Assembly: GCF_002113885.1 (NCBI RefSeq)
Contig: NW_018406858.1
Span: forward strand, 561,363 to 625,362
From: Mizuhopecten yessoensis
Lineage: Eukaryota
Direction of reading: 5' to 3'
Length of the DNA stretch: 64,000 nucleotides
The translations under genes were made by a program, and so were the position numbers. Below are positions 2,264 to 55,000 of the stretch, piece by piece. Position 1 is the stretch's first letter; each line of letters starts with the position of its first letter. The notes under the pieces were generated by a model. It saw nothing but the letters and a program-made list of their open reading frames with translations. It was not told the DNA's origin and did not search any database.

Positions 2264-2667
2264 TGATTTATTACATACATATACTTTAATAACAAGGGTT
2301 CTTATTTTACTAGTACATGTTATCATATTTTAGTTATTTTTGTGTTATTTGGAAACCACTAAATTATGATAAAAATGTTTTAGCTTTTTTATGCCCTTTT
2401 TGGAAACCAACAAAATATGATAATTGCTGAATAAAAGTGACTGTATCCATGTATATTACACGAGGCCTTATAACGTGATCAAAGACATGACGCCTGATAC
2501 ATGTATCACTCAACCTGTGTCAATAGAACACCTGACTAATCATCAGCACCTCTCTATACATAGATGTTGTCCTGAACACCTCACCAATCATCAGCACCTC
2601 TCTATAGATAGAGATAACAATTTGCTTCTCTTTCCTGAGATATGTACATATCATTTCACACAATTAA

Positions 2668-2750
2668 CTCATTCACCCCTAAAGACGCATTTGACTTCCT
2701 CCATTTCAAAGGTCGGAATAGTTCATTATGAAATTTCAGGGGTGAATGAG
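2668..2750. mobile_element. 83-bp MITE with TTAA target sites (piggyBac-like)
   Basis: TTAA|CTCATTCACCCCT ... AGGGGTGAATGAG|TTAA; perfect 13-bp TIRs. Confidence 0.7.
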
Positions 2751-3191
2751 TTAAAATGTCACAGGAACAGAAAGTCATTTTTCACACTTGCCAAACCGTT
2801 TATTTCCTCATTCATAAAATAGAAATAACTGTACAATGTAGTAACAAACATGGTTTACATAAGTGAGGTCAGTTGGTGCCTTAATTGTCTTTAAAGAATA
2901 AACCTCCTTTAACTTTTCCTTGTAAAGGGTCATAATTATGATTTTCAGTGGAAAACAGACCCACTACATGCTTTCTGATAGAACAATACACATACCAACA
3001 TTAGACATTTTGAATGGTAAAAACATCTAGGTCACAACCTGACTTTCTTTATAGCAAGCATTGTCCAATCCTCAAACTGTCACTTTTAACATGTTATTTT
3101 ATGACATGTGACATGTCATATCTCTTCTGATGAAGGTGTCTTTAAGTGTAATGTCAGATCCTAGCTTATTCTACACACTGTTGTCCTGAGT

Positions 3192-6100
3192 CTACATCAT
3201 CTCTCCTCCTCCATCAACCATCTCAGCTTCAGCAGCACCTTTCTCCCTCATCCTTCTCTCATGTACCATACGATGCTTTTGTTTCATGAAAGCATTCACT
3301 ACATCATAGTACACAGGTAAGTGTCCATCTGTCAACAAAATACACAGGTAAGTATCCATCTGTCAACAAAATACACAGGTAAGTGTCCAACTGTCAACAA
3401 AATACACAGGTTAGTGTCCAACTGTCAACAAAATACACAGGTTAGTGTCCATCTGTCAACAAAATACACAGGTAAGTGTCCGACTGACAACAAAATACAC
3501 AGGTCCACAGGTGAGTGTCAATTTGTTTAAAGTGATAGAGAAATTATCAATTTACTTGTTCATATTAGTTGTATCTTGCATCATCCTTATCATATCTTTA
3601 TGATAGCAACAACTAATAACCAATATATAAACATTTCTTGTTATGGTATAATAACAAGAGGTCCAATGTGGTTGTGTTGCTGACTATTTACTCATCTCAC
3701 ATTTTCACCTTCAAAGTTGGTTAATTCAAATTGATTTAAATAGACTTAAAAATCATTACTCTACACATAAAGGATCTTTGTTGTGAGATTGAATTTTTCT
3801 ATACCTTCAGAATCTTTGTCGTAAGATTTCAGCTTATTTCAATAAAGGGACACTTCACAAATTAGGCATAAATATCCATTCATCAATTGGAAATCAAACT
3901 TACTTGAGACCAAATTTGGTTGAAATCAAACAATTCTTAAATCTAAAGGTAGTTATTGTAACAAGAGATCCCAGAGGAGTCTTGGCGCCCACCATTGTAC
4001 CATCTTCATTAGTTCTTTGTCAGTTTGATCTTTTCTCTTCTTTCCTCAAATCTGTTTGATCGAGTCATGTTAACAGTAAATGCACCTTGGGGTAACTTTT
4101 GATCTAAACTTAATACTGATGTGTATGAAAGCCAACATTTAAAGTGAGTTTGTCATTTCACATATTTATTAGTACAGTACTAAATGTGAAAGAAATAGAA
4201 TCGATCATTGCAATATGAGAAAGATCTGTTTAGTATTTCCTTTAGACATTTCGTTTTTATGATCAGTCTCAAAATACAACATGTACAACGAGGGATCAAG
4301 GGGAACCTACATATCAAATTTGAGAAAAATCCCTCAAGTTATTCTTGAGAAATAGTACTAACAAACCTTCAATGTCAAAAATCAAAGATGGCTGTTGGTA
4401 GGCCATTTTGTTTAACTGATCAGTTTCAAAAGTTAACATGAATAATTAAGGAGAGTGGGGAATCTGCATTGGACAACTTTTGGTCGCTCAAGCAGGATTT
4501 TAAACGCCATTGGCGAGCAGGCGACCGTCCATTTCAGACACTGCTGCACAACAAGGGAACAAGGGGAACCTACATATAAAATATGAGTAAGGTCCCTTGG
4601 GTACTTCTTGAGAAATATCAATAACAAGAATTGTTTACGGAGGGACCACGGACGCAGGGTGATTTGAATAGCCCACCATCAGATGACGGTGGGCTAAAAA
4701 ACTTGCCATTCAGAATAAGTAACCTCATAAGTACTGTAAAACCTGCATGTAAATAGTCAGCAACACACATCACATTGGCAATTGAAATTAGCTTGAGAGT
4801 TCCAAATTGTTTGGTATTTCTGTACTTTTAGTTACCTGCCCTTTTATTACAGCAAAGAGTTATATACTTTCAAGTAATACTAGTATATTGATAATGTTTT
4901 CCTTTTCCACATACACATCTCCGCTCTGCCACAAGAGCTTGACCTCTCTCATCTTGGTTATAAAGCAGGGATTTTATTTACTCTGCTACTGGTAATATTT
5001 TTATGTTAATAATTTTCTACAACATTCATGGAAATCATTTCAAAATGTTGAAATTCCCTAAACAGGTCCACAAATTCAATTTATCTTATTCCGAAACCTC
5101 AATTTGTCTTTGTTGATATAGAGGGAATAGCTTACATTTTAAGGAACTTTTCAAGGCCTGAATAAGAGAAACAATGTGGGACTTTCTACCTTATATTTTT
5201 AAAATAAATTAACAGTTTTAAACTTTATTTATTTTACAACATTTATGAAACAAAAGGCAATATTCAATCACAACAAGCTCAGAATAGGTTGGTTTCCTTA
5301 TTTGTAAGGAGATACAAATAAAGAAACCAAAATAAAGAAACCAACCTATCCTGAGCTTGTTGCGATTGAATATTGCCTTTAATTTCCCGTTCCTCAATCG
5401 CCCTGCATACCCCTGGGTATCGAACCTAGAAGTACGGCGTTGGCTCTACACCCCGATAATTAATTATGAAACAAGTTACATGTATACCATCTTATATTAC
5501 CGTATACAGAGAAATTTTGTCCAGTTAAACTTTCGCATTTCGAAAGATAAATCCATAACAAATATTTGTGTATTGTTAACTTCATCCTTAATCTTAATGT
5601 TAGAGGAAACCAGAGGACTCCAAGTAAACGTTTTTGGTTGGACAGGTGACCTGCTATCTTTTAATGTCTGATTAAGGAATCAAACCCTGGTCATATACCA
5701 CACAGTACATACTTACATTTTAGCATCCATTCATCACTTGTCTCATTGTATGTATCCTTCATTACTTTACATTTTGTATTTCTGTTGCTGTAATCAGAAA
5801 ATACGCAATGCATCCACCGTTTCCTTAGAATAAACAATATGTCATTGTCCACTTTTCTGTAAAAAACAAATGCATTGATAATCAATAACATCAGTTCTTG
5901 AAAAACTGCCTCAAGCATATATGTCAGGTTAAGTAAAAGACTGTCTTGTTGAGAAATTAACTGACAAGTGTAAACACTGCATACACTTGTCAATGTAAAT
6001 GGGAAAACAACTTACAACAAGTCATACACAGCAAATTAAAACCTTGATGGTATAACAGTACCTGTACAGTTAGTCAAGCTTGCTTTTATACAAATAGGTT

Positions 6101-9100
6101 TCAAAAAAAGAGAGAGAAAACAAGTTTTAGTGGGGGGGTTTTCATTTTAAAATTAACAAATGTTACGTAATCTTGACAAAAGGTAATGCCCAATAGTAAT
6201 GGATTGCCTGGGAGTTAACACAAATAAACAGGCATAGGGTCATTGTGGTGGATATCAAAATTACATGTATAAGCACTAAGGCTGTGTAAACATTATCAAC
6301 AGCAAACAAATGATGCAAAAATAAATAATAAATGGCTCACAATCAAATTATTTATCACACTGATTTTTTTTTTATACAAAACAGACAACGAATGAACTAT
6401 CAAACATTTTGCAACAATGCAATAAGGATTGTACTTGTAACTTAACCTTAAGGTAAAAATATTTTGTTTTAGTGAATAAATCTGTGATTTTGTATACACA
6501 CTGCAGCCCAATTTGTTCAACGTTCTTACTTGTCTCTTTTGAACTGTTGATCTGCTTCAAATCGGCACATTACATCATCTGTATAGCACTCATCAATGGT
6601 AGGTACCCTGTTGAACCTTCGGTGATAATAGGGAACAGTTTTCCTATCACCTTGAAACTTTTCTGCAGTACCTTGATAAAAAAAAAATCCATAATAAAAT
6701 TTTAAAATTATGCATTAATTGCTTCATTAAAATATTCAAATTGAATAAAACCTCTCACACACAGGGAGATTTTAGGGAGGGAATCTCTCCTGTTAGTTTC
6801 CATGTTGTTATCCTGGGACTAGATTATCCAAGATGGGGCCAAACCCCAGATTCAATTGAATTCTGTCTGATAGCATGCATATGATTTGTGTTCATAGACT
6901 CACAACCATTTGTATGTTATGACCCTAGGAGTAGTTATGACCCTTGTCCTTGGATGAGCTCCCAGGACAGATCAACCTCCAGGCCTATCCTGGGAAGTGG
7001 TGGCCTAGGGAATTTTCAATTTCAAAAGTATTTTATTGACAATACATATATAATACAAACATATAAGTTAACATTAAAGAAGATATTAGAACAGTATTGA
7101 CAAAAGAATAAGAAAACAGGCTTTGCCTATATCAGTCTTCTTATAATTCCGGTAGCTACGTACAATGCTTAAATATATAAAATGTTGTGATTCGTTTTCC
7201 TCTCACACTCATGCTCACCCACACCCACACCAGCTTATGTCTAATACTCGTTATTTAAGGGATAAAACTTGCCTGAATAACAATAATAATAACAATATAT
7301 ATGAATATTCATTTGGAATTTATCTAGCACGTATAAGTAACGAAACGTTTTGATGATTTAAGATAAGAGTCAAAATGTATAAGAATAGTTTTATTTAATT
7401 GGTCGGATGCATTACTAATACCATATACTAAACAGTGCAGATTTAAATATCCTAATAGATTATAAATAGTGGTAATATGATGCCTAATATTTGAATACAG
7501 AGGACATTGAAAGAAAAAATGTATTAGATCTTCCCTCTGTACACCACATACACAGGAAGCATCATCAATCAGATGGTCTTGTATCAGAGTTAAGATCACT
7601 TTTAAAATTTCTTAGCTGACATAAAATTGTGTTAAGTTTCCTCGGAACACAGTTAATAAAAGTTTCTGAGACGGATGTATCAAAGGTTTTTTTAAGTTTC
7701 TTTTTAAAAGATGAAATTGAGATGGAGTCTCGTACAGTGCTATCAAGTGCATTCCATTTTACCATTGTAGAAGGGAAGAAGCTATTCATATAAGTAGTAG
7801 TTCTTGTCTGTGGTATATTAAAGAATCTGTTATTTCTGAAGGTATAGTTATTATTTACATTTAGAAATGGTTGAATGATATTATCGAGATAAGTTGGAGT
7901 GTAATTATTAAGAATCTTATACATTAATGTTAGTTTATGATTTTGTCTTCGTGTGTGTAATGTTTCAAGTTGTGTTTCAGTATACAGAATGTGATGAGAT
8001 GTACCTGGCCAGTAATTAAACGCATAGCTTCTAGTTGAACTGATTCTAAAAGATCTGATTCCGATTTGGTACAATTATCCCATACTGTATCAGAATATTC
8101 TAGCACCGGTCTTATATAAGAGACATATAATGTTTTTAATGTATCCCTATCAACTGTAGTTTTTAAAATTCTAAGAATACTTAGTTTAGAGTTTGCTTTC
8201 TTATAAATATTTGAAATGTGATCTGACCATGTCCCTTAACTGTTAAATGTTAGTCCTAAGTGAGTATGGTGTTCATGTTGTGGAATTGGAGTATTGTTAA
8301 ATAGCAGTTGAGGATGACTGTTAATGTGTCTACGAGAGAAGTTAATAGCTACAGTCTTATTCGGATTGAATAGGATCTGCCATCGCTTTGACCATTCAGA
8401 GATTGAGTCAAGATCATCATTAAGTATGTTAGTAGGTGTTGTAAGGTCATTGTTATTATTTACTATTACATAGAGAGAGGTATCATCTGCAAAGAGTTTT
8501 ATATGAGAAGTTACATTATTAGTAATATCATTAATAAAAAGAAGAAAGAGGAAGGGACCAAGGACAGATCCTTGAGGAACCCCTGCAGACATAGGTTTGG
8601 TACTAGATTTATAACCTTCAAAGATAACCCTTTGTTTTCTGTCAGATAAGTAAGCTTTAAACCAATTATATAATTTACCTTTAATACCATATGTTTTTAG
8701 TTTATATAATAGGCCCAAATGCCATACTCGATCAAATGCTTTACTTATGTCACAGAAAACAAAACGCAAATCTTTACCTTGGTCTAAATTGCCACTTATA
8801 GTATTATAGATATCAGCTAGTTGATTAGTAGTGGAGTCTTTGGGTTGAAATCCTGACTGATGTACACATAACATATATTGTGACTTGAAATATAATTAAA
8901 CGTATATTTAAAAATATTTTTTGCCAACATTTTGATAAAAATAGATGTAATAGCAATAGGTCTATAGTTATTGAGATCACTGATATCTCCTTTACCTTTA
9001 TAGAGAGCAGTAACATTAGCCGTTTTTAGTACATCAGGTATTATTCCAATAGATAAAGTTCTATTAAATAATAGTTTGAATGGGTATACTAAAGAAGAAG

Positions 9101-10847
9101 AAATGTTCTTTACAATCATAGGTAAAATACCATCAGGACCCACTGGTTTGTTTTTATTAAAAATGTCAAATTGGTCAGTTATATCTTGTTCAGTTATGTT
9201 AATGTCAGAAAGTTCAAATGGACATAAGGGAGGTAAATCAGGTAGGTTAGTGTCAGTAGTATCAGTAAAGAAGTTATTTAGTGCCTCAGCTTTATCTTGT
9301 GGATGGATTAATATTTTATTGTTAGATTTTAGAGGATAGGAATTAGTGCTAGTGTTATTCATTTTTCCTATAGATTTTGCTATCTGCCACCATTTTCTTG
9401 GATGCACTGTTTTGTCGGCAAGACAATTTTGAAGTTTCTTAAAGTAATTTTCTTTGGATTGCCGAATAATTTGTATAGTGTAATTGCGACAAGTTCTAAA
9501 TTTTGCCCAATCTTGTTCCCTATTTTTATTTTTAGCTATTTTATGTAATCTATTCTTATATCTTAATTTATGCCGAATTTCACCAGTCATCCAAGGTTTA
9601 TCATCAGGATGGACAGTAATTGTTTTATGAGGGATATGGGAGTAAGTAGCAGAGTTTATTTTGTTTATAACAGTAGAATATAGTTCATAGTTCATTAATG
9701 CTAGTAGTGTTATTAACTATGGAATCCCAATCATTACTAAGTAGTTCATTATTAATAGCATCCCAATTAGCTTCATTGAACTTATATATAGGTTTCTTGA
9801 ATGGTTTATTTTTTAGTGTCTTAAAACAAATGTTAGCAAGGATGGGGCAGTGATCACTACAGAGAGGGGAAAGTACATTTGTCGAGGTAAAAATGTTAAC
9901 ATCATTACTAATAAATACATCAATTAAGGTAGCAGTAGTGTTTGTAATGCGTGTTGGTGATTGTATTAAGTTTTTTAAGTGATATTTAGTAATTAATCTT
10001 GCTATATGTGAATTAGGTTTCATTGTGATAAAGTCAATATTTATGTCACCAGTGATAATGATATTAAGATTAGTATTAGAAAGATTATCCAAAATGTTAT
10101 CAAGTTCATTCCAGTAATCTATTTTTGTATTAGGAGGGCTATAAAGACAGCAGAGAAGCATTTTTTTGTTAGAAGTGTTAATTTCTAGGATGACAAGTTC
10201 TATGACTTCAGTTTCAAGATCAGTTCTGTGATTTATTAAGAGGTTGTTTTCAGTATATATCATAATACCACCACCGTGTTGCCTAGGGAATACCACAGGT
10301 GCTGGACACACTGGTCAATGGTCTTATGGTTACTTACTGTTTAAAATGCATGCAAAATTTATCTTACATCTTAATAATTGTGATGAGGAATTAATATATA
10401 CAATGTACCTTATTTCAAATGAGCATTCCAAATTTTTTCATTCCGTATTTTTAAATATTGATCGACCATTAGTAACGTTACCAAATGGCACATTTGTGCG
10501 GTGCACAATGACCTAACATACTCATGCATATGATGTATGTTTATGTATAAACAGACGACTGATCAGATTTTTGAAGCCTTCAATTATAGTCAGTTTTAAC
10601 GGACTAGAATGATTACTGTAGTCTGCTAAAACTGGCCATAATCGCAGGCTCAAAAGTTCTGATCGATCATGACATAGGCCTACCCCTATGTCATTTGATA
10701 CCTTAACTATTAGTTAAGTTTTTGTGAGCTTCATCAATTTATGTTACCCTTTATCAAAGTGGCAGGAGCATCAAAAAGTAGAGATAAAAAAGTCCTTGTA
10801 AACTGTGTGTATCTCGAAAGGGTTGAATCGTCGTCCTTTCCCGACAT
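3192..10847 (-). CDS. NDUFB10: NADH dehydrogenase (ubiquinone) 1 beta subcomplex subunit 10 (PDSW), 4 coding exons, 172 aa
   Basis: Exons 10847-10748, 6671-6530, 5856-5717 and 3328-3192, all GT-AG with compatible phases, 519 nt in total. Protein MSGKDDDSTLSRYTQFTRTFLSLLFDAPATLIKGTAEKFQGDRKTVPYYHRRFNRVPTIDECYTDDVMCRFEADQQFKRDKKVDNDILFILRKRWMHC...YGHLPVYYDVVNAFMKQKHRMVHERR. The YYHRRF.RVP.I.EC...D..C.FEA..QFKRD..VD motif is the PDSW signature. Confidence 0.93.
3311..3503. repeat. 31-bp minisatellite, 6 copies, spanning the NDUFB10 intron 3/exon 4 junction
   Basis: Unit ACACAGGTAAGTGTCCATCTGTCAACAAAAT starting at 3311, 3342, 3373, 3404, 3435 and 3466. Confidence 0.95.
3960..4700 (+). mobile_element. 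Probable non-autonomous Helitron/Helentron-type (HINE-like) element in NDUFB10 intron 3
   Basis: Starts AACAAGAG and ends in the hairpin TAGCCCACCATC-AGAT-GACGGTGGGCTA followed by an A-run. Internal duplicated CAAGGGGAACCTACATAT blocks. Architecture typical of bivalve HINE-like repeats; family assignment is inference. Confidence 0.5.
5253..5380. mobile_element. Foldback/MITE-like element, ~51-bp inverted arms with 3 mismatches
   Basis: AAAGGCAATATTCAATCACAACAAGCTCAGAATAGGTTGGTTTCCTTATTT (5253-5303) versus its near reverse complement at 5330-5380. Confidence 0.7.
7014..10280 (-). mobile_element. 5'-truncated, frameshifted non-LTR retrotransposon (CR1/L2 group) ORF2: APE endonuclease plus reverse transcriptase, in NDUFB10 intron 1
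   Basis: EN motifs GGGIMIY, LYSPPN, GDINID, SDHCPI (9685-10311). RT motifs NYRPI, QSGF, DISKAFDRVWH, GVPQGSVLGP, LFADDT (8236-9695). C-terminal C-CG...HFFFQCP. AATAAA plus TTTGAAATTGAAA tail near 7015-7037. Flanking 11-bp direct repeat GCCTAGGGAAT at 7003-7013 and 10281-10291. Confidence 0.93.
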
Positions 10848-11270
10848 TGTGGATAGTGACCTACCGGAAATGTGACTGTATGGCACTGGCTACGACATCA
10901 GTCTCCAGCACAGAAATATATTTAACATTTTTGTTTACAGTTTTTCATTAATTTCTAAATTGGACTTAAGTTGAATAACATATTTTAACGTTTTTTAAAT
11001 TATTGTTTATTTGCTGTACAATAAGTATCTGATTTGTATGTCGTAAAAACCGGTTTGAGGTTAGATTATAATATAAAGAACACATACACAAGTAATGCTT
11101 TTTCTTTTAAACTAAAGTGGTGGATACCCAAGTACCAATGTGTGAAACAAAAGATTCTCAAGTTGATTAGTTTCTCTTACGATACGATACGATCCAGGTC
11201 AAAGGTCACAGATCCCAGGCACTATCGGACCGACATACGGCAGCTCTTCCTTTTTGAGTCGACGGCCATC
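10848..11270. promoter_or_regulatory. Bidirectional promoter shared by NDUFB10 and RPL3
   Basis: Divergent ATGs at 10847 (-) and 11271 (+). ETS/GABP-like CCGGAA at 10864-10869, perfect DR1 AGGTCA-A-AGGTCA at 11196-11208, TCT/5'TOP tract CTCTTCCTTTTT at 11244-11255 and YY1-like GCCAT just before the RPL3 ATG. Confidence 0.75.
11244..11255 (+). promoter_or_regulatory. TCT initiator / 5' terminal oligopyrimidine (TOP) tract of RPL3
   Basis: CTCTTCCTTTTT ending 15 nt upstream of the ATG-only first coding exon, typical of ribosomal protein genes. Confidence 0.8.
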
Positions 11271-14200
11271 ATGGTAAGACGTGAACTATTGATGTGAATT
11301 CAATCTAGCGTCATCTGTCATTAAATCGAACAAATTGGAAATTGCACGATGAATTGTAATGACTTATATAGTTACTGTGTAATGTACCGAAAGATTTTTC
11401 TTCTTAGATGGAAAATATAGCAGTATTGTGGTTATATATATATTGCACATCATGATCTTTTGACACGCACTTATACACGTGTTAGACAAGCGGGTTTTGA
11501 TGATGAAAAACCCCCAAAAGGGCCTTTAATACATACGAAACGAACATTCAAAAAAAATCTGAATTAGAACTTCAGAAAAAAAGCTGACTCTTGGGAATAT
11601 GTTTTCTGATAACTTTATTTTCGACTGCAGCTTCAGTGTACATGTTGATTCGCCCTAAATCCCGAGCCCCCTGGGTTGGTTAAGGTCGAATTTGAACATG
11701 TTTAGTAGGGAAAATCCTGGAATTTGAGAGAGCAGTGGACCATTTCCAGCAGTTTTTTAGGCGACATCAAAATGATGATAAAACTGGTCAATTTCAGTTA
11801 TGAAGGGTCAATGGCCCCCTCCAGGTTTAGTAGTGAAGGCTTTTACAATCGCATCTCGCGTCCTGGTCTTGTTAACTGATGCATTCTCACTTACGGTAAC
11901 TAGCCACTGGCATGGCGACCCATAGGTACTAGCCTCAACGTTTATCCATACTAGTGCCGTCAGAACTGGAGAAAGGGGGGGGGGGATCTCTGAACTAGAT
12001 TTCTTGGTGACTCGTAGCCATTGGGCTTGATGGTCATCCTTGACTATTGGTGAATTGCGCATAAGTTGCGAGTTGTACATTCAAACAGACAATTCACATG
12101 TTCCTAGAATATGCAATATGATGTAGATTAAGTCTCGCAAACTCTTTTTGATGTGCAGGATTTTAATTGAAGAAATGAGGGGAAAAAATGCAGCTGTTAA
12201 AATTACCAATAGAAAACTTAAATTGTCCCTTTTTGTTTTTTCAGTCACACAGGAAATTCTCAGCACCCCGTCATGGGTCGAAGGGCTTTCTACCAAAGAA
12301 GAGGGCCAGCCGTCATAGGGGCAAAGTCAAGGCTTTCCCTACAGATGATAAGAACAAGCCTGTCCATTTGACAGCTTTTATCGGTTACAAGGCTGGCATG
12401 TCCCACATTGTTCGTGATGTAGACCGACCTGGTTCGAGTAAGTACCATGTAGACACGAGGTCTCCTTAATGTAATTAGCATAACCTGGATGTCGTCTGGC
12501 CGTAGCTGCGATAACGTAGCTTTCTGACGACCGCCATGACAGATCATCCGTGACGTTATCTCAATTAGCCTTTCTATATATGGCCTGCATGGCCAAATAA
12601 AGTATTACTACTGATGTTTACTACAATTTCCACATTAGGTCATGACACCTATATGTGGACATCGGACCTATATCGGAAGAGAGACAACCTTTCCAACACT
12701 GCGGTCAATTCAGATTTCGATTACGCTTGCTACATTTACTTGATTATTTAACGACATTTTAGGCAGAGTTAAACTTCAAGTTGTGCAGGATATCAACAGA
12801 AATAGTTCATACGAAAACCTTATTTATGGATGCAGACCAATGTGCTGTCAATTAATGCTAAAATCGCCCCGGTGTGATTCACACCGGGCTTGCTCCATTA
12901 CAAGGCATGGGATCGATTTAATACCCGGCCGGGGCAGAGGAGGCCGGGTATTAATATTAGTTCTATCTGGCCGCAGCACCAGACACTTCGACAGACAGGT
13001 GTTTGGTCTGGAATCCGAGTGCACTACTCCATCAAAATGAAATACTTCTCCATCATTTTATGTACAGATTTAACGGAATGCAATTTTTAACTAAATTGGC
13101 AGTTTTAACAAGACCAAAACAAAAAATCTTGGGTTTCCGCTAACCCTACCTATCCTAAATTTTTATTTTTATTTTAGATATGCACTGTTAAAGTCCAAAC
13201 TTCCGCCCTAAAAAGACGACTGAAACAGGAGTAAAATAAATTTGGTCCGAATAATTGTCTATTAGTACATGCAAGGTACAATATGTTTGTTAATAGTACC
13301 CTGAAGCCTTGCAACATTAAATGCTCCAATACAGTAGTGCACTCTATTCCCAAACCAGATATCATTGATCAAAATGACGAAGCCTATCAATTGGCCCAGG
13401 GTTTTTCCAAGAAAATTTAACCATCATGTTCAAGTATGCTGTATGTTTTGAATTGGGCAATACAATTGTTCGAAAAATAATGCATACAATATCGATAATT
13501 AGAAGATGCTGTCTGAAAGATCTTTTATGCATCATTGTCTTTCAAAATAACTATTTCAGTTTTGAGTGCCAATGTTCATTAATCTTGCATTTGATAACGA
13601 TTCAACGGGTGAAAGTTCTGTAAAACTTGTGCAAAGTGGCCAAAATTGTTATTTTGTTTTACCGAAACGGAAATGAAATTATTCCAATAGTAGTAATGAT
13701 TAATATGATAACTGAACAGGTTGTCAAGTCCACCTTTTGTATTTTAGAATCCAACAAGAAAGAAATCGTGGAGGCAGTCACCATCATTGAGACACCACCC
13801 ATGGTTATTGTGGGTTTGGTAGGCTACATTGAAACACCAAGTGGTCTGAGGTCATTCAAGACTTTGTTTGCTGAGCATCTGAATGAGGATTGCAGGAGGC
13901 GATTTTACAAAAACTGGTATGATTTCAAATGTTGTAAAAGTGCATTATATTAAGACAATATTTAGATTTATGAAATACAGGCTACTACATTTGCATGTAA
14001 ACCGTGTATTGCAAAAACAATTTGGAAGAAATTTATAATCTGAAACTGAAATTTGTGATCCAAAATATGACTAGCTTTCCTTTATTGACTATTTTATGTT
14101 GCATGATTTTGTAATAAGAAATGTTGAATTGTGCTATACCTGAACTAATGATGATGTCATTCCAGCTCCTACCATGGTTATATGGTGAGCTGTGGTACTC

Positions 14201-16609
14201 CTCTTGGTCAGTGTCCTGCTGTTGCCTAATTCTGTACTTGCTAAACTTTCACGGTTTTTGACAGCAGTACTGAGTTGGCTTGCTTGGTTCACGGCTAACG
14301 AGTCCATGTTTAATGTTGTGGTTTTCCTCCACTGGTCGGCATCCGACTACGAGGCTAACCACATGCTTCTTAATCAAAAAGGTACAACTGCAAGAAGAAG
14401 GCATTTACCAAGTACGCCAAAAAATGGACTGATGAGAGTGGAAAGAAGGAGATTGAGCGTGACTTCCAGAAAATGAAGAAGTACTGCAAGGTCATCCGTG
14501 TCATTGCCCACACACAGGTAAATAATTTAGACATCTATAGGATTCGGTTTAATATTTTCTAAGTCTTTTTACAAATCCCAAGGAACATTAAAAGTCAAAT
14601 TTATTTAAGTGCTCTAGGGAGTCCTTACTACAAATAAAGGATTGTTCAAGGTAGCTCTCTATTTGTAAAATTGTTGATTTATTTTAATATGCTAGTTCTT
14701 GCATTACTGACGAGCTCAAAGCTCGCACCTTTTTGGAAAAACAAAATATTGCAATGTAAGCAAGACTAATATTGAAAGGATTCTTTTGAAACGTGGGAAA
14801 CTATTTTGTTGACGTACATTATGCAAACTATACTTTTTTGTAGACTAAGTTGATGAAGAAGCGTCAGAAGAAGGCACACATCATGGAGATCCAGGTGAAT
14901 GGAGGCACCATTGCACAGAAGGTGGACTGGGCTAGGGAGAAGATGGAATCATCTGTCCCTGTTGGCTCCGTCTTTGCCATGGATGAAAACATTGATATCA
15001 TTGGTGTAACCAAGGGTAAAGGAGTCAAAGGTGAGATGAATACTGATTTTATTAAATTTCATGGCCTTTGAAAGAAAATGTGAATTTTGTTGGGCCAGAA
15101 TTCCTTGACTAACTTTCTCTCGAGTGATCAAACTGCATTGATGCATGATGAAACACATGGTAATGCTCCTGCCAGAGCATGCTGACTTTCAGTGGTGACA
15201 CAATCCATGCTGCCTTCCTTCTGACAACAATGCTTGAGAATGTCTTGAAAAATCCATTTTTCATTGCCCTACCTACCTTTAAAAAATTGGTGCCATGTTT
15301 AAATGCAAATTTTAATCCATTCTTGTTTACATTACTGTTATTAAACAAAGAGCTAAAGCAAGCACACATTTTGCTTAATAACATAACTTGCCTAGCCGAG
15401 ATGTTTTTTTCACAACTATTGCTTAAAAAAGTAATTCCATTTTGGCCTGATCAGGGATAAAAAAAAAATCTGATTTATTTACTACCAAATTAAAAGTATT
15501 TTTAACTACAAAAGTTTTCCTTTATTTACCTGACAGGTGTGACATCCAGATGGCACACAAAGAAGTTGCCCAGGAAGACGCACAAGGGTCTAAGAAAAGT
15601 TGCCTGTATTGGAGCCTGGCATCCAAGTCGTGTTCAGTTCACTGTTGCTAGGGCTGGACAGAAGGGTTACCATCACCGTACAGAGATCAACAAAAAGATC
15701 TACCGTATGGGTGAAGGTACACACACTAAGGACGGAAAGCTGGTGAAAAATAATGCTTCCACAGACTTTGATCCCTCAGAGAAGAACATCACCCCCATGG
15801 GAGGATTCCCCCATTACGGAGAGGTCAACAATGACTTCGTCATGATCAAGGGCTGCACCATGGGACCTAAAAAGAGGATTCTGACCCTCCGCAAGGTTAG
15901 TCTTCTATAAGAACAGCAAGGTGAACTTTGCAAAGGATGATGTTTTTTGTATCGAGAAATTGGCTCAAGTTTCAAGAAATGAAATGTTTTTGTTATAGAA
16001 TTCAAAAACCTTTATCTTTTTCCTGTGGTAGTACTGCGACTTTCAGTTAGATACCTGTATGTTTTACTCGAGAAAGCATGAACACCAAAGGCCATGATTT
16101 AATCTCTTTCTTTTTTTTTTACATATTTTAAGTGGCTTAGTTTTCATTTCAGATATGCTGTTGCTATAGTAGTAGGGCATTGGTGAAAAAGTGTTTTTGT
16201 TTCCAACTTTCTTTGCTATTTTCACCATAACAATGTTAAATTTTGTAGTCACTGCTGCCATCTTTCAAGAAGAAGCAGATGGAGAAGATCAACCTGAAGT
16301 TTATTGACACTGCCAGTAAATTTGGTCACGGTCGCTTCCAGACATTCGAGGAGAAGAGTAACTTTATGGTAAGTTGAGGTGTCTAAAAAAAAAATGTCGG
16401 AGATGACAAACAGATATTATTTAAAATATTTCTTTTTTAAAAAGAGCTCTCGACAATATTATTGCAATGTCGGCTTACTTGTTTTGTGAAAAATGTCTTC
16501 ATCTGCATTATTAATGGAATATTTTGACCTTGAATGAAATAACTAATAGTTCTTATTTGTCTGTTTTCAGGGACCTCTCAAGAAGGACCGCAAGGAAACT
16601 CCTGCATAA
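11271..16609 (+). CDS. RPL3: 60S ribosomal protein L3 (uL3), 8 coding exons, 401 aa
   Basis: Exons 11271-11273 (ATG), 12245-12437, 13748-13916, 14382-14517, 14844-15030, 15537-15895, 16249-16368 and 16571-16609; all GT-AG, 1206 nt. Protein [21 protein letters not shown]...[27 protein letters not shown]...[13 protein letters not shown]...[18 protein letters not shown] at 16633-16638. Confidence 0.97.
14143..14276 (+). ncRNA. Candidate box C/D snoRNA-like structured element in RPL3 intron 3, overlapping an alternative 3' splice site
   Basis: Box C ATGATGA at 14148-14154, box D CTGA at 14270-14273, short terminal stem AAC/GTT, hairpin at 14163-14192 and a 15-pair stem 14208-14224/14259-14273. 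I recognised no rRNA guide. Confidence 0.45.
15135..15233 (+). ncRNA. SNORD83: Box C/D snoRNA of the SNORD83 (U83) family in RPL3 intron 5
   Basis: Box C ATGATGA at 15145-15151. Guide GCTGCCTTCCTT immediately before box D CTGA (15221-15224) is complementary to the conserved 18S rRNA sequence AAGGAAGGCAGC. Terminal stem GCATTGATG/CAACAATGC. The TGCCTTCCTTCTGA end matches vertebrate U83 as I recall it. Confidence 0.85.
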
Positions 16610-22500: not shown

Positions 22501-22630
22501 GTTTGGTTTAAACTTTGTTTTATTCAGAAAAGGAAACAAAAACAAGTGTCGTGACACTTATGTAAATTTGTTACCTGTGTAGGTAAAATAGGTAAATGCT
22601 TGTAGTTTGTTTTGAAATAATCGTGAAATC

Positions 22631-23995
22631 ATGGTCTTACGGGAACAAACCGTTGTCCAAGTAAGTTCATTGGTCAAAGACTTGGACAGGACGATGAAAA
22701 TTAACGGTGGGTTAGAGGACATCGTCCTCACCAACAATCGCCAGCATATGCGGAGGGAAAAACCCCAGCTCAACTTCGGCAACAACGATCGAGTGAAAGC
22801 GTGTATAGGAAACCATCTGTTTCATGCTGTGTTTAAGTGTCGGTTTAAGAAGGTGAAGCTGTTGTTGGACCGTGGCTTTGACGTAAACATGAGGAATAGT
22901 TACGGCTACAGCGTTCTTGTGGCAGCCCTGCACATCGACGATAACGACCAGCGAGAGAAAATGTTCCGAACGCTTATCAACCGTAACGCTGATCCCCTCC
23001 AGAAGGACCCTAAGCATGGCCGACACGTCCTGTGCTGGGCATGCCTTCTAGGTTGTGTTAATGAGGTAAAGTTCCTAATGGATATGTTCAAGGGAGACTT
23101 TGATCTTCACGAGAAGGACAAGGAAGGGATGACCGTTCTCCACCATGCCACACAGGCTGGCCAAGAGGAAGTGGTAACCATGCTTGCTTCAGAGTTCCGG
23201 CGCTTTGGTTTGACAGTGGACATTGTTGACAATCTAGGGCTGACACCTTATCTTCACGCGCGGCGGCTCGGCTACACTAACATCACGCGTATACTACAAG
23301 ACCAGGGCCGCGCATGTCCCGGACAGGGCGACATGTTTACCTTCCGGACCGGTCGGGAGTGGTCTTCCCTTGGCCGCGAGGAACGGCACGTTCAACAAGA
23401 ACAAGAACGCTTTGGGGATTACATGAAAGCAGCAATTCTTGGTCGAAGTCGAGTTATACACCGATATCAGAGTCGAGCACCTCTTATAAAGATAACACCA
23501 CCCGCTGATGGAGATGTTGTAGATAGTCGAATCAAATTTGTGGTCAAGGAGAAGACTCCTGCAGGTGGCACAAAACGCGTATCATTCGCCCCGCCCCCTG
23601 CGGAACCTCGATCGACACATCTAACTTTACCGTCGGATGTTACCCAGAGGCCTAGTTTGGCACTAACCATGATTGATATGACTCCTGGAAGTAAACAAGT
23701 TGATCATTTCAAAAGTAGTCATGCAGAAACAACAAAACCGGAAACAGATCGTTCGAACAGCCATGGAGCGACCATTTCAAATATGTTCGGAGTTTTAGCG
23801 CAACAGAACGCGTCGTCCTTTCGCCCAACGGTGGTGATTCCGACGGCGGAACCGGAAATCACACCCAGCAAACAAAAGCGGTCAACATTGGCTATACTCT
23901 TTGGTAAACAAAATAAAAAGAAGGTTAAATCACCAAGGGGATCGGAGAAAAAGAAAACCACAAAGGAAAAGAAACCAAGTAAGGGACGTAAATAG
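22631..23995 (+). CDS. Ankyrin-repeat protein, ANKRD63/ANKRD34-like, intronless ORF, 454 aa
   Basis: About 5 N-terminal ankyrin repeats (GYSVLVAA, GRHVLCWAC, GMTVLHHA, GLTPYLHA). EFRRFGLTVD resembles ANKRD63 SFRRLGLRLD. Low-complexity tail ending in a Lys-rich segment. The start could be M1 or a downstream Met. Confidence 0.85.
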   Translation: MVLREQTVVQVSSLVKDLDRTMKINGGLEDIVLTNNRQHMRREKPQLNFGNNDRVKACIGNHLFHAVFKCRFKKVKLLLDRGFDVNMRNSYGYSVLVAALHIDDNDQREKMFRTLINRNADPLQKDPKHGRHVLCWACLLGCVNEVKFLMDMFKGDFDLHEKDKEGMTVLHHATQAGQEEVVTMLASEFRRFGLTVDIVDNLGLTPYLHARRLGYTNITRILQDQGRACPGQGDMFTFRTGREWSSLGREERHVQQEQERFGDYMKAAILGRSRVIHRYQSRAPLIKITPPADGDVVDSRIKFVVKEKTPAGGTKRVSFAPPPAEPRSTHLTLPSDVTQRPSLALTMIDMTPGSKQVDHFKSSHAETTKPETDRSNSHGATISNMFGVLAQQNASSFRPTVVIPTAEPEITPSKQKRSTLAILFGKQNKKKVKSPRGSEKKKTTKEKKPSKGRK

Positions 23996-49095: not shown

Positions 49096-52000
49096 TCAAC
49101 TATTAAAGGTAAGTCCGTTTACCCGCTGACCATTGTCCACGATGTAAACACCACCAGGGGTCGTGCCGAGTGACTGCGTGGTTGGTCTATGCTGCACTCT
49201 TGTAGGGATATACAAAGAATGTAAATTGGAATCTCGTCTGTTTTGGTCATCTGTCATATCAAACAGATTTCCCACTTCTACTTCTTTGTAAGCCAACAGA
49301 AACGTGTCGGGATGGGTGCACGGGTCCTCATCGCCCTTTATGATGGATACACTCCTGCGGAAAGACGTTTCTCTGTTGGCCCTCGTTGCTCCTTCCGACG
49401 TTAGACCCAGCGTAGTTGTCGAGTCGCTTAAATTACTGATCACACTGGACACGTCACTGTTGACACTCTCCGTACGCGTCACACTTCGCTTGCTACATAC
49501 CGATGTTCGGAAATCAGCTTTTTCTTTTGGCTTACAACAACAAAATAACCAGGGAACCCGCTGATATAGTGCTTTGCGAAATTTTGGATGGCTGAGAGCA
49601 TATACCACTGGGTTGTGCATGGAGCTTGACTTGGCGAGCATCATCGGTAGTTCTGACACGAGTGGTGTTATCCAGTGTGCAGGTCCAAACTGTGCGATCA
49701 AAGCAATAATAGCATACGGACTCCACGAAATAATGAACAGACATGTGACGGTCATGGCAATCTTGGAAATTCTCAATTCTGAACGTGCTCTCTTATTATT
49801 TGCACGAGCATCTTCGGTCTTCATACTCCTGGTAATAGTTAGCATCTTCTGGTCATGGCGTCGGACACCTCGGATGATCAGTACATAACAGACGCCAATG
49901 ATTATCAGGGGTATAAGAAATCCAAACAGATACAGAACCACGATATAAGTTCGCGTCCGCGCTGTCTTGGTGAGATAGTCGAAGGTGCATGACGTTTGGA
50001 AGCCCTCGGGGATGTAGGCGCCCCAGCCAAAGAATGGTGGAATACTCAAGAGGATGGACAGGACCCATACAATGACGATCATAAGGTGGACCTTGCGTCT
50101 CGTCATGGTCTGCGAGGCCTGCAGTGGTTTAGTGATGACGATGTAACGATCAATGGAGATAGCTGTAAGTGTATTGATGGACATCAGACCAAAAACACCT
50201 CCTACAAAGCCATATAGCTGACAGACTGCAACACAAAACACCACAACTGTAACTCGTGTATCAAGACAACAATGCTGTGGTTAGGAAATTTGTTCTATTA
50301 CGGTAGCCTTTGATTTAATTTAACCTACTCCTATTCTGTGATTTATCACACTTGTAGTTTTTGAGAAACAAGGACTTGTTTATCATTTTCTTGGTGTACA
50401 TTATGCAGTTTATTGGTTATGTAAGCAGTATTTTGTTCACGAGTAGAAAGAAATATAACTTACACAATGATCCAAATATCCATTTCTGGTGGAATGACGA
50501 TACAGTAAGGAGAGGGAAGCCATTGACTGCAGAGAAGATGAGGTCACTGACCGCCAGATTCACCACGAACAGGTTAGATGGTGACCGCAGGCTCTTGGTG
50601 CTGAAAAATGGACACAAAGACAATGTTAATATACGTATAACTATTCTTACACTAATGTATAGTAACGTATGGGTCAGATTGTTCTTGGAGGACGAAGAAA
50701 AATAACAAAAACAAATCGTGTGAATCAAGCGTAGATTGCCTACAGCAAAGGAATTTAACTCTTCGACAAAGGTTACAAATAAACAAATCATTTTTCTCTT
50801 GATGCTAGTATTAACCTTACTAAGGACTTTTCCATTGTTCGATACATAGATAAGCATACCGGTAGAACTGAAAATCTTCATGCAGAAAACCCCCAAAGAG
50901 ATTTGGCTCAGCTCCCAACCAAAATTGAAGTTTTAAGAAACACCAGTGCAGTACTCTGGGTTTTTTTCGCCAAGGTCACATCCCCATTCCCCTTGCAGAT
51001 TCGGGTTTATTATTGTGTTCTGCTTAAGGGACATTACATAATCCTCACTTGATCTGCTATCTCCATCATAACACCCTGGATCTATATCTTTTCTCTTCTT
51101 ACTTTCCCCCAGACATACGTCTGTTTTGCAACTTCGATAAAAAAAAAGCCCGGTATAATAACAAATAAACTAAATCAGCGCATGAACACATCATCTGAGT
51201 GCGTTAGTTTTGCTGTTATTTTCAAAATAGCTGGATCTAAAAAGTAAGTACAGATGTACAATTCCAGAGTATCTTGATTTATAAGAGAGGTTCCCTCAAA
51301 TGAAATAAAATATGAAATATATAAAAATGAAGAAGGAATTACACGATTCCATTACGGACAGACGGACAGATAGATAAATTGATTCAATTATACACTCCTT
51401 ACATCATTGCAGGGATATTACTCAATCTATCACTATACCTTGATTATTCATATTTACTGGATGTTCAAATATCAACATTGAAAACTGAATTATAAATGTG
51501 CTTTTATCATTTTATAATTGTTTCTGGTCCGCAAATACCACAATGACATATAAATCACTTTAAAACCGGATTTTGCGTGCCAAAAGCAGGTATTATACAA
51601 GGCTATCAGGCTAACATGTTCGACGAGGGCCATATTGATTATTTTGCCTAATGGCAACCAAGAGTTTTTCCTAACTTGTACTAGAGTTCTTTTTGAAAGC
51701 TTATGTCCATTCCTAACACTATGCAAAATATTAAAACTCTTAAAGACAGAGCGCACATTTTCTTTCTGAACTCAATTCTTAAAATCCAAATATTGATGTA
51801 TTGATCATTTTCATGAAAAAAAGCGGCTATTGCCATCAATATGTCTATTTTCTGTTACTTGACATTGCTATTCAAAACAAAACATGACGCAACATATATA
51901 AACATTATTTGAATTCAGCACTGATCGATTTCGACAGCAATACATTTCAGATAGGCTACATATATATCTGAATTATTTACAAGTAGGTTGAATACATTAC

Positions 52001-55000
52001 AAATTAGGTCACTATATTTAATGAAATATCTGTATGCGTAAAATGTTGTGTTGGTTATATATGTAATTATTCTATATCTTTTAAGGGTTCAAGGTTGATT
52101 ACAAGTCCTTTGTTTATTAATCTTACTCAGAACAAGTGCACTGGGTGCATTGACCTTTCGAACGTCTATCGTGCTGGTGTGTGACCTGTTGTTCGTCTAT
52201 CGTGCTGGTGTGTGTCCTGTTGTTCGTCTATCGTGCTGGTGTGTGATCTGTTGTACTTCTATCGTGCTGGTGTGTGACCTGTTGTTCGTCTATCGGGCTG
52301 GTGTGTGACCTGTTGTACGTCTATCGTGCTGGAATGTGGCCTGTTGTTCGTCTATCGTGCTGGTGTGTGACCTGTTGTACGTCTATCGTGCTGGTATGTG
52401 GCCTGTTGTTCGTCTATCGTGCTGGTGTGTGGCCTGTTGTACGTCTATCGTGCTGGTGTGTGACCTGTTGTTCGTCTATCGTGCTGGTGTGTGACCTGTT
52501 GTACGTCTATCGTGCTGGTGTGTGACCGGTTGTACGTCTATCGTGTTGGTGTGTGACCTGTTGTTCTTCTACCTGCTGGTGTGTGACCTGTTGTACGTCT
52601 ATCGTGCTGGTGTGTGGCCTGTTGTACGTCTATCATGCTGGTGTGTGACCTGTTGTTCGTCTATCGTGCTGGTGTGTGACCTTACGTACGTTTATCGTGC
52701 TGGTGTGTGACCTTGTGTACGTTTATCGTGCTGGTGTGTGACCTTGTGTACGTCTATCGTGCTGGTGTGTGACCTGTTGTACGTCTATCGTGCTGGTGTG
52801 TTACCTTACGTACGTCTATCGTGCTGGTGTATGACCTTACGTACGTCTATCGTGCTGGTGTGTGACCTTACGTACGTCTATCGTGCTGGTGCGTGACATA
52901 TTGTACGTCTATCGTGCTGGTGTGTGATCTTACGTACGTCTTTCGTGCTGGTGTGTGACCTTTCGTACGTCTTTCTTGCTGTGTGTGACCTGTTGTACGT
53001 CTATCGTGCTGGTGTGTGACCTGTTGTACTTGTTACCGATATAATCAGAAATAATTACATCAGTTCTCACGTAAATATATTTTAGCCTTCAATTGATTTC
53101 TGTAGAACTTGGAGGCGTCTGCCTTCCATTAAATTCGATCGATGGTCATGCAATGTTGTATACTCAACTAAGACGGTATGAACTAAGGTATTTTCTCCGG
53201 GCATTCTAATAGATTTGCAGCGCGTTCATATTTTTCATGATTGAACACACGCAGAGCCTAAAATATTACAAATAGTGGAATATTAACCACAAACATGGAC
53301 AGTTGAAATATTCATGTTGTTCCTATTTTCGAACTGTCCAGTATGATGTCTTGTGTTTCTTTGAGACGCATAACAACTGATTATGAACCTAGCAAAGTGA
53401 AACGTAGGAGCCCAACTAGTTTTCGTGTGAGTGTGCTCCCACACCTGTACAAAGGCTTTGTGAAGCCTCAATGTAACAGTGTTCACGTATCGGATGTGTT
53501 TTCTCATCTTTCTTATGGTTTGTTGGTTTTGTGCTTAATTGACCCATATCCAAACGGAGCAAATGTCTTTATTCTTGATATTTGAAGCTTTTACCTACAT
53601 TTAACTCTATGATATGAACTAGATAATTGCTTCAAGAACAGAAGGTTGTGGTTATAAATAAGTAATTGTAGCATCCAAGGCTCTGTGTCTGTACTCATAA
53701 ATCCTGTGATCAATTACCACTTTAAACATGCAACAAAAACATTTTCAATTAAAAGTATCACTAATTGTCATAATGTTATTAATACATTTATACCAAACTG
53801 CCACCGTTCATACTTTCTCTGAGGACAAATGATTAACCCAGTACAATTCCACACTGATATGTGCCCGGAGAAAGGCTAAACAAAGTTATTCAGGGACGGT
53901 TTTAAATTTGGGTTTCAAACCCGGAATTATTGGCTCTGCCGTCTCCCAACATTTCGTGGTCCAATTTATATGAATGCTTGGAAATAATATAATATGTCCT
54001 GCCTCACAACCGAGACAATGCTTATTTCTCTGTCACAACACAGCGGTGATATGAATGTATATATTTCTCTGTCACAACACAGCGGTGATATGAATGTATA
54101 TATTTTTCTGTCTCAACACAGCGGTGATATGAATGTATATATTTCTCTGTCACAACACAGCGGTGATATGAATGTATATATTTCTCTGTCACGACACAGC
54201 GGTGATATGAATGTATATATTTCTCTGTTATACAAGAAAGGTTATACTTAGTAGGCTTTATAGTGTGACGCACTGGAAAGCGCATTTGCCTTTCAATAAC
54301 GCGGCCGGTGTTCGATTCCCCGATCGGACGTGAAAAGGTATGGGGTCACCTGCCCGACCAAGGTTTTTTTCTTCGGGTACTTCAATTTTTCTCCCTTATC
54401 AATACCCCCGTGCGCTAATATCCGGGCCAAGGGGAGTGATTGATATAAGTTGAAACAAGTTTTTTCATAATTGTGGTAAAATAAGTAAAGTTTGAATTAA
54501 GGTGTAATAACTTGAGCCCCGTCTGATTTAATCAACTACAACTGTATTTCACCGAAGTGTAGACGATGATCATGTCTATTTATATAACAGCCGAAATCAC
54601 AAAGTTTGGAATTATATTGTGTTCATATATATTCATGTGTCCTTATGCAATTCATAACATACTTGCTAAAAATGTAGACGACTGTGGTATTTCCCATGAT
54701 CCCGAGCAGGCCGACGATGGTGATGTAGACGCCGATAATGTAATGCCACTCCTCTGTGACGGGTGGAAACTGTGTCCAGTGCAGATGAACGGACATATCG
54801 TACGGACCTTCCCAGCCAGTGTTTGGCGTCATAGATCTGTTCAAAGTTCCATTTATATCCGGTAATCCGGGCAACGTCGACTTATCTGTAGCAGGAAACA
54901 GGAAAATGAACAAGGACGTCCACGACGGCGGCGCCACAAACACCAGCAACACCAACCCAATATATGGACCTTAACTCTTTTGTGGCGTTTTGATCAAAAT

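What the first reader, a model, noticed from the sequence alone, without database searches (positions are those of the whole stretch)
3192..16609. NDUFB10 and RPL3 are head-to-head on a ~420-bp promoter, echoing human RPL3L-NDUFB10
Seen: NDUFB10 (mostly missed by the ORF track) starts at 10847 on the minus strand and RPL3 at 11271 on the plus strand. Established, from memory: human NDUFB10 is the divergent neighbour of the striated-muscle paralog RPL3L on 16p13.3. Inference: the pair is an ancestral bilaterian microsynteny linking a cytosolic ribosome gene to a complex I subunit. After vertebrate duplication RPL3L kept the neighbour and RPL3 kept the intronic snoRNAs; this locus shows both ancestral traits together.
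Basis: partly seen in the sequence, partly recalled or inferred. Interest (0 to 1): 0.7.

Follow-up and report, generated by a model that had tools for sequence, protein, structure and literature searches.

The report
Ancient RPL3-NDUFB10 head-to-head gene pair
In this scallop the genes for a ribosomal protein (RPL3) and a mitochondrial complex I subunit (NDUFB10) point away from each other only 423 bases apart, and database numbering suggests the same two genes are neighbours in several insects and a crustacean as they are in humans, so this is likely an ancient animal gene pair of a known kind, probably kept because the two genes share a short promoter region.

Summary
Observation confirmed. 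NDUFB10 (minus, 4 exons, ATG 10847, Pfam PF10249, reciprocal match to mammalian NDUFB10) and RPL3 (plus, 8 exons, ATG 11271, U83 snoRNA in intron 5) are head-to-head with 423 bp between start codons. No animal genomes could be searched, so synteny was tested by record numbers, calibrated on this locus (difference 1). Numbers differ by 3 or less in 8 of 18 comparisons: two other scallops, a dragonfly, a cricket, a locust, two bees and a mantis shrimp. Three are near and seven are far apart; Artemia has the genes on different contigs. Papers give the human order RPL3L-NDUFB10-RPS2. An ancestral bilaterian pair is therefore likely (about 0.88), but orientation in arthropods is untested and no invertebrate deuterostome, annelid or cnidarian was testable. 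A special ribosome-complex I link is not supported: in 4 animal contigs from metagenomes NDUFB10 instead faces CCT, TBCB, casein kinase 1 or NudE. It fits the known class of conserved ancestral microsyntenic pairs (Irimia 2012), whose table I could not read.

The parts
10748..10847 (-). NDUFB10 coding exon 1 (ATG at 10847)
   Evidence: joined model identical to P0001; tblastn-type match in G000
6530..6671 (-). NDUFB10 exon 2
   Evidence: Pfam PF10249 E 6e-18; only match of mammalian NDUFB10 in G000
5717..5856 (-). NDUFB10 exon 3
   Evidence: Pfam PF10249 E 2e-7
3192..3328 (-). NDUFB10 exon 4 to stop codon
   Evidence: Pfam PF10249 E 5e-5
3329..3470 (-). Five tandem 31-bp copies of the exon-4 splice acceptor; only the last gives the full protein
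7014..10277 (-). Broken LINE (endonuclease and reverse transcriptase pieces) in NDUFB10 intron 1, between 14-bp direct repeats at 7000-7013 and 10278-10291 (likely target-site duplication)
   Evidence: Pfam PF14529, PF00078; repeat D6
10848..11270 (.). 423-bp divergent intergenic region: two GC/CpG-richer ends around an AT-rich middle; inferred shared promoter region
   Evidence: function inferred, no start sites measured
11244..11255 (+). Pyrimidine tract (TCT/5'TOP-type start element) 16 bases before the RPL3 ATG
   Evidence: sequence; motif scan; motif definition recalled
10864..10871 (+). ETS-type site (CCGGAA core) just upstream of the NDUFB10 ATG
   Evidence: motif scan; consensus match only, motif recalled
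11271..11273 (+). RPL3 exon 1 coding part (ATG only, then intron)
   Evidence: model equals P0374 as printed
12245..16609 (+). RPL3 exons 2-8: 12245-12437, 13748-13916, 14382-14517, 14844-15030, 15537-15895, 16249-16368, 16571-16609
   Evidence: Pfam PF00297 for exons 2 and 6; joints for introns 2-7
15137..15231 (+). U83 (SNORD83) C/D-box snoRNA in RPL3 intron 5
   Evidence: Rfam RF00593 42.5 bits; the only match in G000 among 52 scored candidates
14148..14273 (+). Unclassified C/D-box-like element in RPL3 intron 3 (candidate only)
   Evidence: box scan; no Rfam family near its cut-off

Best explanation
RPL3 and NDUFB10 sit head-to-head 423 bases apart in this scallop, and they are likely a gene pair inherited from the last common ancestor of molluscs, arthropods and vertebrates, probably kept because two essential genes start from the two ends of one short open promoter region that is hard to break. 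Shown: the gene identities, layout, RPL3 splicing and the U83 snoRNA. Shown by proxy: adjacency in other scallops and four arthropod orders (record numbers). From papers: the human order RPL3L-NDUFB10-RPS2. Inferred: divergent transcription from a TCT-type core promoter (RPL3) and an ETS-bearing core promoter (NDUFB10) across an AT-rich spacer. A breakpoint must land in about 400 bp and leave both promoters working, so the pair decays slowly. When it does break, NDUFB10 ends up facing another housekeeping gene, so the constraint is likely promoter geometry rather than a need to match uL3 to complex I. After the vertebrate duplication the copy that became muscle-specific RPL3L kept NDUFB10, while the ubiquitous RPL3 kept U83 (inferred). 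I put ancestry at about 0.88 and passive retention, given ancestry, at about 0.75.
For: Calibration: this pair has consecutive records in two annotations (XP_021357487/488; OWF48480/479). Difference <=3 in 8 of 18 other comparisons: Argopecten 1, Ylistrum 3, Ladona locus tags 008458/008459, Gryllus longicercus 009086/009087, one Schistocerca record set 2, Hylaeus volcanicus 2, H. anthracinus 2, Oratosquilla 2; six of these eight also share a contig length. Chance of a difference <=3 is 0.0002-0.0004 per comparison. Expected scallop pairs re-created by chance in both a vertebrate and an arthropod: 0.0002-0.13 per genome depending on the null, against about 600 real ancient pairs, mostly 5'-5' (68.6% in the mollusc Lottia) (PMC3514665). 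Human adjacency; both promoters overlap one interval that lies between the genes, which implies head-to-head (inference). One animal-type RPL3 and one NDUFB10 found in G000. Partner swapping: CCT (L020, 632 bp), TBCB (L021, 293 bp), casein kinase 1 (L025, about 495 bp), NudE (L031, 2.4 kb).
Against: Record numbers give neither strand nor distance, so head-to-head orientation in arthropods is untested. 7 of 18 comparisons are far apart in number (three Polistes, two Schistocerca, Neocloeon, Cloeon RefSeq) and 3 are ambiguous (Pecten 12, Cloeon GenBank 13, Ornithodoros 19); some far ones share a contig, and congeners give both 2 and 3558, so large differences are uninformative in both directions. 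Artemia has the two proteins on contigs of different length. 0 of 31 metagenome loci hold RPL3 (most are transcripts or short). Where a species had several RPL3 records I used the nearest. No invertebrate deuterostome, annelid, other mollusc class or cnidarian pair could be compared (one search gave no partner). No start sites, chromatin or co-expression data were obtained, so a shared promoter is not shown.
Confidence: 0.66

Rival explanations
1. The pair is ancestral and is kept by selection for co-regulation: a truly bidirectional promoter ties the supply of an essential ribosomal protein to a complex I subunit, matching protein synthesis to respiration.
For: Very short spacer. Ancient 5'-5' pairs are enriched for co-expression (PMC3514665). 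Persistence in three phyla. Human NDUFB10 has a second ribosomal-protein neighbour, RPS2. A GGTCAC hexamer points toward each gene (P about 0.004 uncorrected, one of 15 motifs tried).
Against: NDUFB10 faces four unrelated housekeeping genes in other animals. In humans the neighbour is muscle-restricted RPL3L, not the ubiquitous RPL3, and the promoters are kilobases apart. The intron-bearing RPS2-type match in G000 lies on another contig. One of about 80 ribosomal proteins and one of about 45 complex I subunits (recalled) cannot set the ratio of the two machines.
Confidence: 0.2
2. The pairing arose independently two or three times, because housekeeping genes often sit head-to-head and both genes may lie on the same ancient linkage group.
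For: NDUFB10 readily pairs with housekeeping genes (4 of the 8 loci inspected upstream). The most generous nulls give about 0.1 such chance triples per genome. The pair is absent or unproven in many arthropods, and RPL3 and NDUFB10 are unlinked in Drosophila and C. elegans (recalled).
Against: The same partner recurs in Malacostraca, Odonata, Orthoptera, Hymenoptera, scallops and humans. Real ancient pairs outnumber chance ones by orders of magnitude (false discovery rate under 0.0002 in PMC3514665). Patchy loss is typical even of HSPD1-HSPE1.
Confidence: 0.08
3. The arthropod signal is an artefact of how records are numbered, leaving only a scallop-human resemblance of uncertain meaning.
For: RefSeq numbers are not always positional: identical proteins give a difference of 2 in one Schistocerca set and 2418-3558 in two others, and Cloeon gives 13 and 1633.
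Against: Non-positional numbering hides adjacency but gives no reason to place two unrelated genes together. Consecutive locus tags on one scaffold in two separate GenBank annotations (Ladona 1.06 Mb, Gryllus 5.3 Mb) and differences of 2 in four RefSeq sets agree.
Confidence: 0.04

Closest known systems
Conserved ancestral microsyntenic pairs (CAMPs), co-regulation type (Irimia et al. 2012, PMC3514665), e.g. HSPD1-HSPE1
   Same: Two unrelated genes, adjacent in distant phyla, 5'-5', spacer under 1 kb, patchy losses in fast-evolving lineages.
   Different: HSPD1 and HSPE1 form one machine; uL3 and NDUFB10 do not. This pair is not named in the main text; the supplementary list could not be read, so it may be listed there.
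Human RPL3L-NDUFB10-RPS2 locus, 16p13.3 (10.64898/2026.06.23.733628; PMC7170856; PMC6132288)
   Same: Same two gene families adjacent; orientation inferred head-to-head; scallop exon 7 (c.1048-1167) equals the RPL3L exon 9 deletion S350-M389 given in the preprint.
   Different: RPL3L is a muscle-restricted paralogue, the human spacing is kilobases, and RPS2 is not beside scallop NDUFB10 (a TRPA-like gene is, by my reading; RPS2-type matches are on other contigs).
Human RPL3 as snoRNA host (SNORD83A intron 5, SNORD83B intron 7; PMC3412847)
   Same: U83 in the fifth intron of the uL3 gene.
   Different: One copy here, two in human; no U43 match at E<=10; sponges carry U83 in RPLP0 instead.
Vertebrate divergent pairs of mitochondrial and housekeeping genes, e.g. 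NDUFB5-MRPL47, NDUFB1-CPSF2, NDUFB9-TATDN1 (PMC2871058 supplement)
   Same: An NDUFB subunit gene head-to-head with a housekeeping gene.
   Different: Those rows list vertebrates only; NDUFB10 terms had no hit in the six files.

Membership tests
NDUFB10 (PDSW) family | Match to Pfam PF10249 above cut-off, conserved cysteines | tested here: met
   152 bits against 22.2; C62, C69, C98, C110 invariant in 57 sequences
NDUFB10 (PDSW) family | Reciprocal best match with vertebrate NDUFB10 | tested here: met
   PDB hits are NDUFB10; mammalian P0411 matches only exon 2 of this gene in G000, E 7e-7
uL3, pro-orthologue of RPL3 and RPL3L | Full-length uL3, single animal-type copy | tested here: met
   the second G000 match is an intronless 1247-bp contig 66% identical, closer to a fungal uL3, likely contaminant. 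No tree with RPL3L was built.
CAMP (Irimia 2012) | Non-paralogous genes | tested here: met
   Different Pfam families
CAMP (Irimia 2012) | [quoted passage not shown] | tested here: inconclusive
   Direct in scallop, from papers in human, by record-number proxy in four arthropod orders. Met if the proxy holds; three phyla only, and not the paper's species set.
CAMP, co-regulation type | 5'-5' orientation conserved across lineages | tested here: inconclusive
   Shown in scallop; indirect in human; unknown in arthropods
CAMP, co-regulation type | Co-expression above matched neighbours | not testable with these tools
   Only assembled contigs were available; depth cannot rank genes
Bidirectional promoter | Divergent start sites under 1 kb apart | tested here: inconclusive
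   Start codons 423 bp apart, so start sites are under 1 kb apart unless there are upstream non-coding exons; no start site measured
Bidirectional promoter | Shared elements drive both directions | not testable with these tools
   Needs a two-way reporter
SNORD83 (U83) snoRNA | Rfam RF00593 above gathering score, C and D boxes, intronic | tested here: met
   42.5 against 35 bits, full model 1-94

The most novel reading that the evidence does not exclude
The muscle-specific expression of vertebrate RPL3L is a legacy of this ancient pair: after genome duplication the uL3 copy that stayed beside NDUFB10 lost its housekeeping start element and came under regulatory DNA that raises complex I genes in oxidative muscle, while the copy freed from NDUFB10 stayed ubiquitous and kept the snoRNAs. 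The 'specialised muscle ribosome' and the atrial-fibrillation haplotype spanning RPL3L-NDUFB10-RPS2 would then trace back to a bilaterian ribosome-respiration promoter whose undivided state survives in scallops, crickets and bees.
Probability: 0.15. Interest if true: 0.7.

Novelty: new member of a known kind. Interest (0 to 1): 0.37.

Why it matters
It adds a probable ancient bilaterian gene pair and fixes the history of a medically studied locus: RPL3L, not RPL3, sits beside the ancestral neighbour, and invertebrates keep the pre-duplication state with both the neighbour and the snoRNA. That offers a small, testable 423-bp promoter for asking why such pairs persist, and a hypothesis for how RPL3L became muscle-specific. 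It is not a new kind of system: about 600 such pairs are described, both genes are annotated, and the partner swaps argue against special biology.

Tried and rejected
Direct synteny search in animal genomes: none held beyond G000. Metagenome scan with a 57-sequence NDUFB10 alignment: 31 loci, 0 with RPL3 at E<=1e-3 and only noise at E<=5; 14 are transcript-like or under 2 kb; Rfam found nothing in 9 of them. Ten unnamed NDUFB10 representatives looked up for other phyla gave names (Lingula, Tubulanus, horseshoe crabs and others) but no RPL3 partner in my 120 listed of 6307 RPL3 hits: uninformative. Species with only one of the two genes listed (Vespula, Dermacentor, Ixodes, Microplitis and others) and one Schistocerca RPL3 record without a listed partner were left out of the count. 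U43 in intron 1: no Rfam match. Intron-3 C/D candidate: unclassified. A second RPL3 in G000: rejected as a paralogue, likely contaminant. Extended synteny with RPS2: not found. NDUFB10 splice joints and 5' ends from sequencing runs: not obtained; this leaves start sites and NDUFB10 splicing without read support. Papers: searches returned 0; two returned only unrelated listings; one returned human and livestock gene lists; others gave background. Supplement term searches in PMC4504502 and PMC7269912 found nothing. Scan notes: nothing relevant. Structure and complex prediction were not run: no binding is claimed.
Full report
1. The observation. The minus strand carries a four-exon gene from ATG 10847 to stop 3192 with GT-AG introns and a 172-residue product. 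It is identical to database protein P0001, named NDUFB10-like of Mizuhopecten yessoensis by its source. It matches Pfam NDUFB10 at E 1e-44, hits only NDUFB10 chains in the PDB at E<=1e-5, and a mammalian NDUFB10 finds only this locus in G000. The plus strand carries RPL3 in eight exons from ATG 11271 to 16609, 401 residues; six of its seven introns are seen as joints in RNA-type contigs and none in the DNA run. The start codons are 423 bp apart. Both genes appear single: P0001 matches only its four exons, and the second uL3 match is an intronless 1247-bp contig, 66% identical and closer to a fungal protein, likely contamination.

2. Anatomy of the spacer. GC is 46-56% in the 50-base bins next to each gene start and 18-36% in the middle. 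A pyrimidine tract of the TCT/5'TOP type lies at 11244-11255, 16 bases before the RPL3 ATG, which is followed at once by an intron. An ETS-type site lies at 10864-10871 and a GGTCAC hexamer points toward each gene (weak, one of 15 motifs tried). Motif definitions are recalled. This looks like two core promoters around an open AT-rich spacer; that is inference. No start site was measured, and no NDUFB10 joint was among the 15 of 132 joints shown.

3. snoRNA. Rfam snoU83B scores 42.5 bits (cut-off 35) at 15137-15231 in intron 5, the only match among 52 scored candidates in G000. Human RPL3 has U83A in intron 5 and U83B in intron 7, while sponges carry U83 in RPLP0 (PMC3412847, passages). Scallop exon 7 spans c.1048-1167, matching the RPL3L exon 9 deletion S350-M389 (bioRxiv 10.64898/2026.06.23.733628, passages); that the first five introns are at the human positions is recalled. 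No U43 was found.

4. Is the pairing conserved? No other animal genome could be searched, so I compared record numbers and contig lengths of the two proteins within species. Calibration: the pair in this window has consecutive numbers in two annotations. Of 18 other comparisons, 8 differ by 3 or less, 3 by 12-19 and 7 by more than 100. Close: Argopecten, Ylistrum, the dragonfly Ladona (locus tags 008458/008459, one 1.06-Mb scaffold), the cricket Gryllus longicercus (009086/009087), one Schistocerca set, two Hylaeus bees and the mantis shrimp Oratosquilla. Near: Pecten, Cloeon (GenBank), the tick Ornithodoros. Far: three Polistes, two Schistocerca, Neocloeon, Cloeon (RefSeq); five of these seven share a contig length. 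Artemia has them on different contigs (no accession looked up). Congeners give both 2 and 3558, so large differences do not show separation. Where several RPL3 records existed I used the nearest; species with one gene listed were left out. By order, 4 of 7 arthropod orders show close numbers, 2 are near, 1 is apart. A difference of 3 or less has probability 0.0002-0.0004 by chance. The proxy gives no strand or distance.

5. Human. The order HS3ST6, MSRB1, RPL3L, NDUFB10, RPS2 is listed in PMC7170856 (passage) and the 'RPL3L-NDUFB10-RPS2 locus' in the preprint. One 3.6-kb interval is assigned to both promoters, defined as -1500 to +500 of each start (PMC6132288, passages); given the order, that implies head-to-head genes some kilobases apart (inference; about 5 kb recalled). 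RPL3L is restricted to skeletal and cardiac muscle (PMC10313321, passage) and is an old DNA-level duplicate (PMC4219774, passages).

6. Counter-evidence and a control. A metagenome scan gave 31 NDUFB10 loci, none with RPL3. Of the 8 inspected upstream, four have a different divergent partner: a CCT chaperonin subunit (L020, 632 bp between start codons), tubulin cofactor B (L021, mite-like, 293 bp), casein kinase 1 (L025, about 495 bp) and NudE (L031, termite-like, 2.4 kb); L028 resembles L031 but is too short, and L015, L016 and L017 showed no identified divergent partner. So the pair is often lost, and NDUFB10 tends to face some housekeeping gene. This raises the chance of convergence, but even nulls restricted to one linkage group give about 0.1 chance triples per genome (assumed pool sizes), against 595 described ancient pairs (PMC3514665, part 2 of 7 and passages).

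7. How it likely works. Two essential genes start at opposite ends of one short region; rearrangements rarely land there without harming one, so the pair lasts. The swaps, and the fact that the human neighbour is the muscle-only paralogue, argue that no ribosome-complex I coupling is needed (0.66 overall). Active co-regulation (0.2), convergence (0.08) and a numbering artefact (0.04) are the rivals.

8. What is known. The class is known (CAMPs; 68.6% are 5'-5' in Lottia). This pair is not named in that paper's main text, and its supplement could not be read, so it may be listed there. NDUFB10 terms had no hit in six supplementary files of PMC2871058 (main-text passages), nor in the supplements held for PMC4504502 and PMC7269912. 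PMC10287911 has no mention of NDUFB10 or synteny (term search); PMC7521544 lists both genes only in an enrichment table. Nine full-text searches (listings only) did not show the invertebrate pairing; most subscription papers and bioRxiv supplements are not covered. The scan's notes held nothing on it.

9. Verdict. Real, likely ancestral to bilaterians, a new member of a known kind; interest 0.37. The boldest open reading, that RPL3L's muscle expression derives from staying beside NDUFB10, is untested (0.15; 0.7 if true).

Noticed in passing
window 3329-3470, minus: The last splice acceptor of NDUFB10 is repeated five times (31-bp unit); the four upstream copies would give truncated proteins. 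An Argopecten NDUFB10 isoform (P0004) ends in the same repeat-derived peptide, so the repeated acceptor may be shared between scallop genera.
   Followed up: partly
window 7014-10277, minus: Broken LINE in NDUFB10 intron 1, same strand as the gene, with a 14-bp flanking direct repeat; high depth in all four runs shows a repeat family.
   Followed up: partly
window 14148-14273, plus: C/D-box-like element with a short terminal stem in RPL3 intron 3, no Rfam family. Human RPL3 intron 3 hosts a C/D snoRNA (recalled).
   Followed up: partly
window 12244: One RNA-type contig has 181 loose letters before RPL3 exon 2 that end like exon 1 but differ further 5': an alternative leader or an assembly chimera.
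   Followed up: no
window 12531-12965: Repetitive element in RPL3 intron 2 with many variant joints in DNA and RNA runs and a 13-bp hairpin.
   Followed up: no
window 49096-54970, minus: Rhodopsin-family gene (Pfam 7tm_1) that I recognise as the scallop Gq-coupled visual opsin (name recalled).
   Followed up: no
window 22616-23995, plus: 459-residue single-frame ankyrin-repeat gene downstream of RPL3.
   Followed up: no
window 58749-59888, minus: Second LINE reverse-transcriptase remnant next to an assembly gap.
   Followed up: no
L034-L037 (G000:C3531:511363-551362): Multi-exon ankyrin-repeat and membrane-segment gene on the minus strand, TRPA-like by my reading, next after NDUFB10; not scanned against Pfam.
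   Followed up: no
L032 (G000:C73517) and G000:C69612: Short contigs with intronless uL3 (fungal-like) and uS5 frames, likely contamination in the assembly.
   Followed up: partly
L020, L021, L025, L031: NDUFB10 is head-to-head with four different housekeeping genes (CCT, TBCB, casein kinase 1, NudE) in different animals, suggesting its promoter is repeatedly shared.
   Followed up: yes
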